Sequence record: NC_054917.1
Strand: one strand, 5' to 3'
Origin: Escherichia phage vB_EcoM_G50
Length of the DNA: 64,000 nt
The translations under genes and the position numbers were made by a program. Shown piece after piece: positions 37,565-38,586 of the stretch (position 1 is its first letter; the number at the start of each line of letters is the position of its first letter). Under the pieces are notes generated by a model. That model was not told the DNA's origin. It did not search any database and was given only the letters and a program-made list of their open reading frames with translations.

Positions 37565-37640
37565 TGGTCGAGGCAGTAGGGATCGAACCTACGACCTAGG
37601 ACTTAGAAGGTCCTTGCTCTTCCTTCTGAGCTATGCCCCG
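37565..37640 (-). tRNA. tRNA-Arg (anticodon UCU)
   Basis: Hand-folded 76-nt cloverleaf; anticodon loop CUUCUAA; T-loop GGUUCGAUCC; encoded CCA. Confidence 0.8.
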
Positions 37641-37644
37641 TAAT

Positions 37645-37720
37645 TGGGGTGACCGATGGGAGTCGAACCCATGACTACGAGAATCACAATCTTGAGTTCT
37701 ACCAACTGAACTACGGCCAC
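37645..37720 (-). tRNA. tRNA-His (anticodon GUG), probable
   Basis: 76-nt cloverleaf; anticodon loop UUGUGAU; discriminator C73 as in His tRNAs; one A-C mismatch in the anticodon stem; no encoded G-1. Confidence 0.6.
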
Positions 37721-37814
37721 ATTAATACCTACTCCAACAATCAAGATGTCTTCACACGAAATTAAGAGAAGAGTGATCAGTTCAACCCCGATAATCGCGT
37801 CAAGTAGATATTAA

Positions 37815-37830
37815 TGTGACAACTGTCACA
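37815..37830. repeat. Short inverted repeat TGTGACA-ac-TGTCACA in the spacer between tRNAs
   Basis: 7-bp arms with a 2-nt spacer inside a 114-nt tRNA-free gap. Confidence 0.5.
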
Positions 37831-37834
37831 AATT

Positions 37835-37909
37835 TGGCGGACGTGATAGGATTCGAACCTATAACCAATCGCTTAACAGGCGATCGCTCTGCCATTGAGC
37901 TACACATCC
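37835..37909 (-). tRNA. tRNA-Asn (anticodon GUU)
   Basis: 75-nt cloverleaf; anticodon stem-loop AUCGC-CUGUUAA-GCGAU; T-loop GGUUCGAAUCC; encoded CCA. Confidence 0.75.
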
Positions 37910-37913
37910 AAAT

Positions 37914-38000
37914 TGGTGGGGAGTGATGGAGTCGAACCACCCGAGTCGCAATGACAATGGATTTACAGTCCACACCGCTACCTCTACGGGATAACTCCCC
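37914..38000 (-). tRNA. tRNA-Tyr (anticodon GUA), long variable arm
   Basis: 87 nt; anticodon stem-loop GUGGA-CUGUAAA-UCCAU; bacterial-type long variable arm; encoded CCA. Confidence 0.75.
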
Positions 38001-38013
38001 TTAATTCTTAATT

Positions 38014-38088
38014 TGGTGGCCCTGGGTGGAATTGAACCACCATCTGGCGATTATGAGTCGCTTGCTTGAACCTTCCAGCTACAGGGCC
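38014..38088 (-). tRNA. tRNA with CAU anticodon (Ile2-type or Met)
   Basis: 75 nt; anticodon loop CUCAUAA; the position corresponds to T4 tRNA-Ile. Confidence 0.75.
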
Positions 38089-38089
38089 T

Positions 38090-38165
38090 TGGTGCTGATT
38101 GACGGAATCGAACCGCCGACCTTCTCATTACAAGTGAGTTGCTCTACCTACTAAGCTAAATCAGC
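38090..38165 (-). tRNA. tRNA-Thr (anticodon UGU)
   Basis: 76 nt; anticodon loop CUUGUAA; T-loop GGUUCGAUUCC. Confidence 0.8.
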
Positions 38166-38170
38166 AAAAC

Positions 38171-38260
38171 TGGCGGAGGCGATAGGATTTGAACCTATGA
38201 GTCGCCGGAGCGACTGCCGGTTTTCAAGACCGGTGCATTAAACCACTCTGCCACGCCTCC
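38171..38260 (-). tRNA. tRNA-Ser (anticodon UGA), long variable arm
   Basis: 90 nt; anticodon stem-loop CCGGU-CUUGAAA-ACCGG; long variable arm. Confidence 0.85.
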
Positions 38261-38261
38261 A

Positions 38262-38336
38262 GTCTCCATACAAGGATTTGAACCTTGGACCTCCTGATCC
38301 CAAATCAGGCGCTCTACCAAACTGAGCTACACGGAG
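38262..38336 (-). tRNA. tRNA-Pro (anticodon UGG), CCA not encoded
   Basis: Acceptor stem CUCCGUG/UAUGGAG; anticodon loop UUUGGGA; 3' end lacks encoded CCA. Confidence 0.8.
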
Positions 38337-38346
38337 TAAATTAAAT

Positions 38347-38420
38347 TGGAGCGGATAATGAGAATCGAACTCACATCATCAGATTGGAAGTCTGAGGTAA
38401 TGCCATTATACGATATCCGC
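38347..38420 (-). tRNA. tRNA-Gly (anticodon UCC)
   Basis: 74 nt; anticodon stem-loop UCAGA-CUUCCAA-UCUGA. Confidence 0.85.
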
Positions 38421-38425
38421 AAATT

Positions 38426-38512
38426 TGGTGCGAGAAGTGGGACTCGAACCCACAAGGAAATCATTCCGCAGCATTTTAAGTGCTGTGCCTTTACCAATTT
38501 GACCATTCTCGC
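38426..38512 (-). tRNA. tRNA-Leu (anticodon UAA), long variable arm
   Basis: 87 nt; anticodon stem-loop CAGCA-CUUAAAA-UGCUG. Confidence 0.85.
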
Positions 38513-38513
38513 G

Positions 38514-38586
38514 CTGGGAATAAAGGACTCGAACCTTTGCATCCTGGAATCAAAATCCAGTGCCTTACCAACTTGGCTAATTCCCA
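38514..38586 (-). tRNA. tRNA-Gln (anticodon UUG), abuts tRNA-Leu
   Basis: 5' UGGGAAU acceptor; anticodon stem-loop CUGGA-UUUUGAU-UCCAG; 3' end is 1-2 nt from the Leu 5' end (dimeric precursor arrangement). Confidence 0.85.

What the first reader, a model, noticed from the sequence alone, without database searches (positions are those of the whole stretch)
37565..38586. tRNA cluster expanded to eleven genes, adding Tyr(GUA), Asn(GUU) and probable His(GUG) to the T4-type set
Hand-folding gives the order Gln-Leu-Gly-Pro-Ser-Thr-(CAU)-Tyr-Asn-[114-nt gap]-His-Arg on the minus strand. T4 as recalled encodes only Gln, Leu, Gly, Pro, Ser, Thr, Ile and Arg. The three extras sit where T4 separates its two tRNA subclusters. 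The His call rests on a GUG anticodon and discriminator C73 but has an A-C mismatch in the anticodon stem and no encoded G-1. tRNA-Pro and tRNA-Gln lack an encoded CCA, so they depend on a CCA-adding enzyme.
Basis: seen in the sequence. Interest (0 to 1): 0.55.

Follow-up and report, generated by a model that had tools for sequence, protein, structure and literature searches.

The report
Known eleven-tRNA cluster, T4-like phage
The eleven tRNA genes are real, but they are the common, already-annotated form of the tRNA operon of T4-like coliphages; the only fresh points are that the "gap" holds a conserved folded RNA attached to a histidine tRNA that lacks the usual extra 5' G.

Summary
ARAGORN and Rfam both call eleven minus-strand tRNAs at exactly the stated coordinates and anticodons.

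The window is a Tequatrovirus. This region is ≥80% covered in 263 GenBank phage records (best 99.6%), many annotated with the same eleven tRNAs. Extra Tyr and Asn genes were described for T2L/RB1/RB3 in 2008, and T6 tRNA-Tyr (2 nt different) was shown in 2026 to counter Septu. It is the segB-free allele, at least as common as T4's segB allele, and its tRNA-Asn carries the preferred SegB homing site.

Corrections:
- The CAU tRNA is Ile2-type, not Met.
- The CAU and Arg genes are different alleles from T4's (65% and 70% identity).
- A28 is private to this genome.
- rnaD, rnaC and a terminator lie further downstream.

The "114-nt gap" is not empty. It holds a 94-nt structured RNA (98% of cells paired; 8 pairs changed on both sides) found only 5' of tRNA-His in seven Tevenvirinae genera, unannotated in the records listed, and analogous to T5 RNAIII. 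Every phage tRNA-His examined has U-1, not G-1.

Verdict: ordinary and already known, with a modest side lead.

The parts
38513..38586 (-). tRNA-Gln(UUG); no encoded CCA (G73, C, then Leu starts)
   Evidence: 89% identical to T4 tRNA-Gln
38426..38512 (-). tRNA-Leu(UAA)
   Evidence: 100% identical to T4
38347..38420 (-). tRNA-Gly(UCC)
   Evidence: 99% identical to T4
38262..38336 (-). tRNA-Pro(UGG); no encoded CCA
   Evidence: 100% identical to T4
38171..38260 (-). tRNA-Ser(UGA); CCA is encoded here, whereas T4 has G-TAA at this point
38090..38165 (-). tRNA-Thr(UGU)
   Evidence: 95% identical to T4
38014..38088 (-). tRNA with CAU anticodon, best read as tRNA-Ile2 (lysidine type, AUA codon); ARAGORN and many records label it Met
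   Evidence: The closest E. coli gene is annotated tRNA-Ile with anticodon CAT. It is 81.6% identical and shares a 19-nt anticodon stem-loop and the acceptor stem GGCCCU/AGGGCC. Only 65% identical to T4 tRNA-Ile.
37914..38000 (-). tRNA-Tyr(GUA), class II with long variable arm, A73
   Evidence: 85/87 identical to T6 tRNA-Tyr, which counters Septu (PMC13096335)
37835..37909 (-). tRNA-Asn(GUU), G73
   Evidence: Tyr+Asn pair >=80% covered in 394 phage records, 249 of all best matches at >=99% identity
37833..37859 (-). 27-bp preferred SegB homing-endonuclease site (GGTTCGAATCCTATCACGTCCGCCAAA) at the 3' end of tRNA-Asn
   Evidence: It has the GGTTCRANTCC motif and CCAR. It differs from the tRNA-Ser site at exactly the five positions the paper names: G6, A16, G18, A26, A27.
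37815..37830 (-). Small hairpin TGTGAC-AGTT-GTCACA between tRNA-Asn and the leader element. Its arms copy U-1 plus G1-C5 (A4 form) and the 3' acceptor strand of tRNA-His.
   Evidence: the stem is kept in wV7 with a different loop
37721..37814 (-). 94-nt structured RNA element (His leader). It has a 13-bp terminal stem (14 bp if A:U-1 is counted), an inner helix, and a 4-bp hairpin with a conserved UCWUGAU loop. It ends at -1 of tRNA-His.
   Evidence: Fold z = -2.8. RNAalifold consensus. 97-98% of cells paired against 30-51% when partners are slid; 8 pairs changed on both sides; 0/500 shuffles reach the observed score. The covariance model finds one copy per locus, always 5' of tRNA-His. No Rfam family matches.
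37645..37720 (-). tRNA-His(GUG): C73 and CCA encoded, T at -1 (no G-1), private A28·C42 mismatch
   Evidence: 80.3% identical to E. coli hisR, which has G at -1
37565..37640 (-). tRNA-Arg(UCU); a different allele from T4's tRNA-Arg
   Evidence: 70% identical to T4
37196..37546 (-). 116-aa ORF of unknown function between tRNA-Arg and rnaD; absent at this position in T4
   Evidence: phrog_3355, E 1e-52, unknown function; annotated in wV7 as RB69ORF150c-like
37079..37199 (-). Homologue of T4 rnaD (species 2 stable RNA); limits approximate
   Evidence: alignment to T4 rnaD
36935..37072 (-). Homologue of T4 rnaC (species 1 stable RNA); limits approximate
   Evidence: alignment to T4 rnaC; weak tRNA-like Rfam hit at its 3' part
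36861..36884 (-). Intrinsic terminator hairpin followed by a T run; likely end of the transcription unit
   Evidence: the position after rnaC matches the T4 transcript end described in PMC2330249

Best explanation
This is the ordinary segB-free allele of the Tequatrovirus tRNA operon. Shown here: eleven well-formed tRNA genes, a structured 94-nt RNA directly 5' of tRNA-His, a 116-aa ORF, homologues of T4 rnaD and rnaC, and a terminator, all on one strand. The first six tRNAs are 89-100% identical to T4's. The distal cassette CAU(Ile2-type)-Tyr-Asn-leader-His-Arg stands where T4 has Ile-segB-Arg. Inferred from T4: the unit is transcribed as one precursor from the promoter upstream of tRNA-Gln and cut up by host RNase P and 3' processing enzymes. 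Gln and Pro get their CCA from the host CCA-adding enzyme. The tRNAs top up the host pool for an AT-rich genome: the original set serves A-ending codons plus AUA and AGA, and Tyr and Asn serve amino acids the phage uses heavily. They also act as spare copies when host defences destroy host tRNAs. That is demonstrated for T6 tRNA-Tyr against Septu, and is plausible for Asn against PARIS/AriB. Because tRNA-Asn carries the preferred SegB site, co-infection with a segB+ phage such as T4 should cut this allele there and convert it to the donor phage's segB allele. tRNA-His is a conserved gene in form but lacks G-1, the main HisRS identity element. It is probably still used, either charged less efficiently or matured with U-1 retained. 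The leader RNA is most likely a processing by-product or stable RNA tied to tRNA-His maturation, like T5 RNAIII.
For: Gene calls. Identity of the allele: 263 phage records cover >=80% of the region, best 99.6%, with the same tRNA annotation. Comparison with T4. rnaD, rnaC and terminator. SegB site; the homing outcome was shown for T4 x T2L in PMC2330249. One precursor of about 1.75 kb from a middle promoter to the end of species I RNA in T4: PMC2330249. Codon demand in the window: Tyr 45.2, Asn 61.6, AUA 12.3, AGA 11.2 per 1000 codons at 35% GC. Counter-defence: T6 tRNA-Tyr versus Septu, T5 tRNA-Tyr versus retron-Eco7, AriB cleavage of E. coli tRNA-Asn at UAAUC|C, where the window's Asn has UAAGC|G. 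tRNA-His is under selection for its fold: three compensatory T-stem pairs and a compensated anticodon stem in Jiaodavirus. The T5 record says its U-1/C73 tRNA-His with a suppressor anticodon is an effective amber suppressor. Leader structure.
Against: No expression, processing or charging data exist for this genome. His codons are only 17.2 per 1000, so codon demand does not explain tRNA-His. G-1 is the major identity element for E. coli HisRS (PMC9976931), so efficient histidylation is doubtful. T6 tRNA-Tyr is itself cleaved by Septu and only rescues when amplified, so a single copy may give little protection. Promoter-like hits in the region are no more frequent than in shuffled sequence.
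Confidence: 0.88

Rival explanations
1. The three extra tRNAs are kept mainly as counter-defence spares against host nucleases that cut GUN-anticodon or related tRNAs, not for codon supply.
For: Tyr, Asn and His are three of the four targets of colicin E5 (abstract of PMC1635277). Septu and retron-Eco7 deplete tRNA-Tyr, and phage tRNA-Tyr rescues infection. AriB cuts tRNA-Asn and gives minor tRNA-His products. The window's Asn differs at positions 39 and 41 around the AriB site. His codon use is low. Related genera also carry the fourth GUN tRNA, Asp.
Against: Tyr and Asn codons are very frequent in the window, so demand alone could explain those two. T6 tRNA-Tyr is not resistant to Septu. No defence system is known to act mainly on tRNA-His. 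T4-like phages lack tRNA-Lys, so Asn alone cannot beat PARIS.
Confidence: 0.35
2. The tRNA-His gene does not work as a histidine adaptor. Without G-1 it is uncharged or mischarged, and it acts as a decoy, a regulator, or is simply decaying.
For: T at -1 where the host has G. G-1 is the main HisRS determinant. This genome also has an A28·C42 mismatch. His codons are under-used.
Against: The gene is conserved with compensatory stem changes across at least seven Tevenvirinae genera, and keeps GUG, C73 and CCA. U-1/C73 is also found in T5, a Vequintavirinae phage and a mycobacteriophage. That pattern argues for a working design, not decay. The T5 record reports suppressor activity for its equivalent tRNA.
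Confidence: 0.15
3. The conserved 94-nt interval is a DNA-level signal (an internal promoter for His-Arg, or a recombination or mobile-element repeat) and not an RNA structure.
For: Its basal stem arms are AT-rich near-palindromes (UYAAUAUU / AAUAUURA) with -10-like sequence. The leader-His pair sits in different tRNA contexts in different genera, as a mobile module would.
Against: No sigma-70-like site is called inside 37721-37834. A -10 element at -8 to -3 would start transcription inside the tRNA. Pairing is kept at 97-100% through changes on both sides in P1 and P3, which points to selection on a helix and not on a protein-binding sequence. T5 has an annotated stable RNA in the same place.
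Confidence: 0.1

Closest known systems
Phage T4 tRNA region (8 tRNAs, segB, rnaD, rnaC)
   Same: Same genomic position and strand. Gln-Leu-Gly-Pro-Ser-Thr are in the same order at 89-100% identity. Gln and Pro lack CCA in both. rnaD, rnaC and a terminator lie at the far end.
   Different: There is no segB. The CAU tRNA and Arg are different alleles (65% and 70%). Tyr, Asn, the leader RNA, His and a 116-aa ORF are added. Ser and the CAU tRNA encode CCA here but not in T4.
segB-free tRNA regions of T2L, RB1, RB3, and the T6 region (PMC2330249; PMC13096335)
   Same: Extra CAU ('Met'), Tyr, Asn and an Arg isoacceptor. The preferred SegB site lies in tRNA-Asn, and tRNA-Ser has CCAG. T6 tRNA-Tyr differs by 2 nt.
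   Different: T2L has two ORFs between Asn and Arg, and no His is mentioned for it. T6 has segB after Tyr and lacks Pro, Ser, Asn and His in its annotation. The window has leader-His at that position.
Annotated 11-tRNA clusters of wV7, slur02 and GADU22; RB27 and AR1 matched only for the Tyr-Asn pair
   Same: The same eleven genes in the same order at 98-99.6% identity, annotated as tRNA-Gln through tRNA-Arg.
   Different: The window's His carries a private A28. Records label the CAU tRNA Met and leave the leader unannotated.
Phage T5 RNAIII ('stable RNA with unknown functions') directly 5' of T5 tRNA-His
   Same: About 100 nt, abutting tRNA-His, closed by a 14-bp terminal stem that reaches -2 with U at -1, and with significant fold energy. 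The tRNA-His also has U-1/C73.
   Different: No detectable similarity by either covariance model. The inner domains differ. Homology is therefore unproven.
T4 species 1 and 2 RNAs (rnaC, rnaD)
   Same: Small structured RNAs made from the tRNA operon precursor, with roles unknown (PMC3014915).
   Different: No sequence similarity to the leader. They lie at the end of the operon and not next to tRNA-His.

Membership tests
Tequatrovirus (T4-type) tRNA operon | Lies between the trna.2-trna.4/ipI/57B side and the e.8/e.6 side of the genome | tested here: met
   The region is 98% identical to the wV7 locus, which has those annotated neighbours. Matching ORFs are present in the window.
Tequatrovirus (T4-type) tRNA operon | Proximal genes Gln-Leu-Gly-Pro-Ser-Thr in T4 order and sequence | tested here: met
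   89-100% identity gene by gene
Tequatrovirus (T4-type) tRNA operon | Stable RNAs rnaD and rnaC and a terminator at the distal end | tested here: met
   Alignment to T4 rnaD/rnaC; terminator at 36861-36884
T4 allele of the operon | segB homing endonuclease gene between the CAU tRNA and Arg | tested here: not met
   No segB ORF or similarity in the window; Tyr-Asn-leader-His sits there instead
segB-free (T2L/RB-type) allele | tRNA-Tyr and tRNA-Asn after the CAU tRNA, with the preferred 27-bp SegB site in tRNA-Asn | tested here: met
   GGTTCRANTCC, CCAR and the five discriminating bases G6, A16, G18, A26, A27 are all present. Cleavage itself is not testable here.
Bacterial tRNA-His | GUG anticodon and discriminator C73 | tested here: met
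Bacterial tRNA-His | Genome-encoded G-1 that pairs with C73 | tested here: not met
   T at -1 in the window and in all 14 other distinct phage copies examined; E. coli hisR has G
Bacterial tRNA-His | Cloverleaf kept by compensatory change among relatives | tested here: met
   Three T-stem pairs and the anticodon stem covary between the window and Jiaodavirus. Rfam score 58.7 bits.
Bacterial tRNA-His | Charged with histidine by host HisRS | not testable with these tools
   Needs an aminoacylation assay or an acid-gel northern
tRNA-Ile2 (lysidine, AUA-reading) | CAU anticodon, with the host tRNA-Ile(CAU) as nearest relative and shared anticodon arm and acceptor stem | tested here: met
   The best E. 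coli hit is annotated tRNA-Ile with anticodon CAT, 81.6% identity, identical 19-nt anticodon stem-loop, and C4:G69/C5:G68 present. That those two pairs are TilS determinants is my recollection of Ikeuchi 2005.
tRNA-Ile2 (lysidine, AUA-reading) | C34 converted to lysidine by TilS and charged by IleRS | not testable with these tools
   Needs RNA mass spectrometry or a charging assay
T5 RNAIII-type stable RNA | About 100 nt, directly 5' of tRNA-His, closed by a terminal stem that reaches -2/-1 | tested here: met
T5 RNAIII-type stable RNA | Detectable sequence or profile similarity to T5 RNAIII | tested here: not met
   No hit at T5 RNAIII with models R1 or R2, filters off
T5 RNAIII-type stable RNA | Accumulates as a discrete stable RNA in infected cells | not testable with these tools
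   Needs a northern blot or small-RNA sequencing
Any Rfam family (for the 114-nt interval) | Covariance-model match | tested here: not met
   Nothing at gathering threshold, or at E<=10, within 37721-37834

The most novel reading that the evidence does not exclude
The 94-nt element is an undescribed non-coding RNA family of Tevenvirinae that is functionally coupled to a G-1-less tRNA-His. By stacking its terminal helix on the acceptor stem and pairing with U-1, it might set where RNase P cuts (leaving U-1 as a stand-in for G-1), or delay release of the tRNA. More broadly, phage tRNA-His genes from unrelated families systematically carry U-1/C73. That would mean phages use a histidine-identity solution different from their hosts'.
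Probability: 0.2. Interest if true: 0.55.

Novelty: already known. Interest (0 to 1): 0.22.

Why it matters
For the finding as stated, it matters little: hundreds of sequenced T4-like phages carry this cluster and it is routinely annotated. Four points are useful.
- Annotation: the CAU tRNA should be read as Ile (AUA), not Met, and the Asn-His interval holds a conserved RNA that no listed record annotates.
- Phage biology: tRNA content of T-even phages now has shown links to escape from tRNA-cutting defences, so knowing which allele a therapeutic phage carries is relevant.
- Inheritance: this allele carries the SegB target, so it should be lost in mixed infection with segB+ phages.
- tRNA identity: a histidine tRNA without G-1, working in a host whose HisRS depends on G-1, is a small open question that is easy to test.

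Tried and rejected
1. Spacer related to T4 rnaC or rnaD: no similarity. Both RNAs are in fact present further downstream.

2. Spacer as a degenerate tRNA or a known RNA family: no ARAGORN or Rfam hit, even at E<=10.

3. Spacer as a promoter: no sigma-70-like site inside it. By eye there is no T4 late promoter (TATAAATA) or MotA box with workable spacing.

4. Small ORF starting in the P3 loop and running through tRNA-His (37-aa ORF): the start codon is not conserved (ATG, TTG, or none in L010).

5. Hammerhead-like CUGAUCA motif: it has the wrong core base and is not conserved in Melville.

6. T-box-like 'specifier': the P3 loop UCAUGAU contains a His codon and can pair with the tRNA-His anticodon loop, but Tequatrovirus, X20 and L009 have UCUUGAU and L010 has UCUAAUU. 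Rejected.

7. 'Masking helix': GUCACA upstream of P1 can pair with U-1 and G1-C5, giving a 19-bp helix. In the window the upstream GUGAC takes GUCAC into a mini-hairpin and the normal acceptor stem is the minimum-energy fold. It stays possible only for lineages without that hairpin (Karamvirus, 6.5 kcal/mol in favour), and no covariation is available to test it.

8. Homology of the leader to T5 RNAIII or to the 58-nt KB57 spacer: not significant.

9. IMG/VR and metagenome scans added only 8 and 10 loci and few new variants.

10. Literature on phage tRNA-His lacking G-1: nothing found in the held library. Himeno 1989 is not held.
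Full report
OBSERVATION. ARAGORN finds eleven tRNA genes in the 64-kb window, all on the minus strand between 37565 and 38586. The order is Gln(UUG), Leu(UAA), Gly(UCC), Pro(UGG), Ser(UGA), Thr(UGU), CAU, Tyr(GUA), Asn(GUU), a 114-nt interval, His(GUG), Arg(UCU). Rfam's tRNA model hits the same eleven above its gathering score. Ten score 58.7-74.1 bits; Tyr scores only 30.2. For tRNA-His, T is at -1, the stem runs G1-C72, C73 is followed by an encoded CCA, and A28 faces C42. tRNA-Gln runs straight into tRNA-Leu after G73-C. 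tRNA-Pro runs into tRNA-Ser after A73-C-U. So those two lack CCA, while the other nine encode it.

WHAT GENOME AND WHAT ALLELE. A megablast of 37400-38750 against 50,697 GenBank phage records matches 974 records. Of these, 263 cover at least 80% of the query. The best are Escherichia phages GADU22 and KK4 at 99.6%, all Tequatrovirus (T4-like), and many are annotated with the same tRNAs. The wV7 RefSeq record lists the same eleven genes in the same order, between trna.2-trna.4/ipI/57B on one side and e.8/e.6 on the other. The Tyr-Asn pair alone is covered at 80% or more in 394 records, including the classical phages RB27 and AR1. Extra 'Met', Tyr, Asn and Arg genes in T2L, and segB-free regions in RB1 and RB3, were published in 2008 (PMC2330249). 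A 2026 genome note treats presence or absence of tRNA-His among Tequatroviruses as routine variation (PMC13353012). So the cluster is already known.

COMPARISON WITH T4. T4 has Gln-Leu-Gly-Pro-Ser-Thr-Ile, then segB (666 bp), then Arg, rnaD and rnaC. Gene by gene against the window, Leu, Pro and Ser are 100% identical, Gly 99%, Thr 95% and Gln 89%. The CAU tRNA is only 65% identical and Arg only 70%. The window therefore does not have T4's set plus three insertions. It has a different distal cassette, CAU-Tyr-Asn-[114 nt]-His-Arg, in place of T4's Ile-segB-Arg. The spacer-His arrangement is held at 80% coverage or more by 228 records, and segB by 126, so the window's allele is at least as common as T4's. 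The 2008 paper argues that T4 acquired segB recently.

The 3' end of the window's tRNA-Asn reads GGTTCGAATCCTATCACGTCCGCCAAA. It has the GGTTCRANTCC core and the CCAR end of the SegB site. It differs from the window's tRNA-Ser site at exactly the five positions the paper names as making the T2L tRNA-Asn site the preferred one: G6, A16, G18, A26, A27. By inference, a segB+ co-infecting phage would cut here and convert the locus, as shown for T4 x T2L.

THE INDIVIDUAL tRNAs.
- CAU tRNA. ARAGORN and many records call it Met. Its closest E. coli gene is annotated tRNA-Ile, has anticodon CAT, and shares a 19-nt anticodon stem-loop and the acceptor stem GGCCCU with the C4:G69 and C5:G68 pairs. I recall those two pairs as TilS determinants (Ikeuchi 2005). 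It is best read as a lysidine-type tRNA-Ile for AUA, like T4's tRNA-Ile but a different allele. AUA is used at 12.3 per 1000 codons in the window.
- Tyr. It differs from T6 tRNA-Tyr at two positions, both giving G·U versus G-C in stems.
- Asn. It has G73 and GUU.
- His. It is 80.3% identical to E. coli hisR. hisR has G at -1 where the phage has T.

The A28·C42 mismatch is private to this genome. wV7 and every other Tequatrovirus and Karamvirus copy have G28:C42, and Jiaodavirus has a fully compensated stem. No phage record holds an identical His gene; the best are one mismatch away. The T-stem shows three compensatory pairs between the window and Jiaodavirus. The gene is therefore under selection for its fold.

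Every phage tRNA-His I could examine has T at -1 with C73. The sample is 15 distinct copies: seven Tevenvirinae genera, a Vequintavirinae phage, T5, and mycobacteriophage Bxz1. The T5 record annotates its tRNA-His as 78 nt starting with that U. It also notes that the suppressor-anticodon version is an effective amber suppressor.

THE '114-NT GAP'. The interval is conserved at 80-87% in Karamvirus, Jiaodavirus and Gelderlandvirus, always directly 5' of tRNA-His, in tRNA arrays otherwise arranged differently. It consists of AAUU, a small hairpin UGUGAC-AGUU-GUCACA (37815-37830), and a 94-nt element (37721-37814).

The element folds with z = -2.8. In 13 distinct versions of 93-106 nt it is always closed by a 13-14 bp stem whose 3' strand ends at -2 of tRNA-His. 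RNAalifold recovers that stem, a short inner helix, and a 4-bp hairpin with a conserved UCWUGAU loop.

On the nine-sequence alignment, 97% of cells are paired against 40-51% when partners are slid. Eight pairs change on both sides, and 0 of 500 shuffles reach the observed score. On a model-fitted alignment of 13 distinct copies the figures are 98%, 8 pairs and 0/500. Two caveats apply: the sample is small and related, and the second alignment leans towards the model.

A covariance model finds exactly one copy per locus, always 5' of tRNA-His. This includes four divergent copies not used to build it (56, 50, 42 and 27 bits). It finds none in T4 or elsewhere in the window. No Rfam family matches, and none of the listed GenBank records annotates it.

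T5 has an annotated 106-nt 'RNAIII, stable RNA with unknown functions' in the same place. It has a 14-bp terminal stem that ends at -2 and U at -1. Neither model detects it, so this is an analogy of position and architecture and not shown homology.

EXTENT OF THE UNIT. Downstream of tRNA-Arg lie a 116-aa ORF (phrog_3355, unknown function), close homologues of T4 rnaD and rnaC, and a strong terminator hairpin at 36861-36884. In T4 the whole region is one precursor of about 1.75 kb, running from a middle promoter upstream of tRNA-Gln to the end of species I RNA (PMC2330249). The window's upstream sequence aligns closely with T4's. I infer the same layout here, about 1.8 kb from roughly 38650 to 36860.

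HOW IT MOST LIKELY WORKS. Shown: the gene content, structures and conservation described above. Inferred from T4, from my own knowledge of the Seidman and McClain work: host RNase P and 3' nucleases process the precursor, and the host CCA-adding enzyme completes Gln and Pro.

Function has two non-exclusive parts. First, supply. The window is 35% GC and uses Tyr at 45.2 and Asn at 61.6 codons per 1000, mostly U-ending. From memory, E. coli uses roughly 28 and 39. Second, insurance against tRNA-cutting defences. T6 tRNA-Tyr rescues infection from Septu when over-expressed or amplified, and T4, which lacks it, cannot escape. T5 tRNA-Tyr does the same against retron-Eco7. PARIS AriB cuts E. coli tRNA-Asn at U36-A-A-U-C|C41 and gives minor tRNA-His products. 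The window's Asn reads U-A-A-G-C|G at that site. Colicin E5 targets Tyr, His, Asn and Asp.

His is not explained by demand, at 17.2 codons per 1000. Its missing G-1 conflicts with what is known of E. coli HisRS (PMC9976931). I think it most likely still serves in translation, either charged less well or matured with U-1 retained. I give about 15% to a non-adaptor role.

VERDICT. The cluster is a common, published and routinely annotated allele. The parts worth carrying forward are side observations: the Ile2 identity of the CAU tRNA, the unannotated structured RNA tied to tRNA-His, and the apparently general U-1/C73 design of phage tRNA-His genes.

Noticed in passing
window 37721-37814 (minus); same element in L001, L003-L014, L016-L019 and L021-L027: A 94-nt structured RNA with covarying stems lies directly 5' of tRNA-His in seven Tevenvirinae genera. 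It is unannotated in the GenBank rows listed and has no Rfam family.
   Followed up: yes
window 37721 (the -1 base of tRNA-His); L015:600, L031:8284, L032:60: Every phage tRNA-His examined (T4-like genera, Vequintavirinae KB57, T5, mycobacteriophage Bxz1) has T at -1 with C73, whereas E. coli hisR has G-1. This may be a general phage trait. I found no report of it in the held literature.
   Followed up: partly
window 37693 (position 28 of tRNA-His): A28 creates an A·C mismatch that no other phage record shares; relatives have G28:C42. It is either a recent mutation or a sequencing error in this genome.
   Followed up: yes
window 36935-37199 and 37196-37546: Homologues of T4 rnaD and rnaC are present but displaced by a 116-aa ORF of unknown function (phrog_3355) that starts 18 nt after tRNA-Arg. 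The rnaD homologue ends CACCG where T4 has CACCA.
   Followed up: partly
window 37815-37830: The mini-hairpin UGUGAC-AGUU-GUCACA looks like a tRNA-His acceptor stem with the whole body deleted. Lineages without its 5' arm could instead pair GUCACA with U-1 and G1-C5 of tRNA-His, giving a 19-bp helix.
   Followed up: partly
L004:1603-1675 and 1731-2345 (Enterobacter phage ZX13): In this Karamvirus, tRNA-His has lost its encoded CCA (...GGTCACCTTTG) and a homing endonuclease gene sits just downstream. This looks like another endonuclease invasion at a tRNA 3' end.
   Followed up: no
L028:460-970 (phage T6): T6 is annotated with Gln, Leu, Gly, Thr, Met and Tyr only. Gly and Thr are 11 nt apart, so Pro and Ser are absent, and segB follows Tyr.
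   Followed up: no
window 37868-37873 (positions 36-41 of tRNA-Asn): The phage tRNA-Asn reads UAAGC|G where E. coli tRNA-Asn has the AriB (PARIS) cleavage context UAAUC|C. T5 tRNAs that resist AriB also differ around positions 39-41.
   Followed up: partly
L031:8285-8645 (phage T5): T5 has three consecutive annotated stable RNAs (rna1, RNAI, RNAIII) directly upstream of its tRNA-His. RNAIII folds with z = -3.3.
   Followed up: partly
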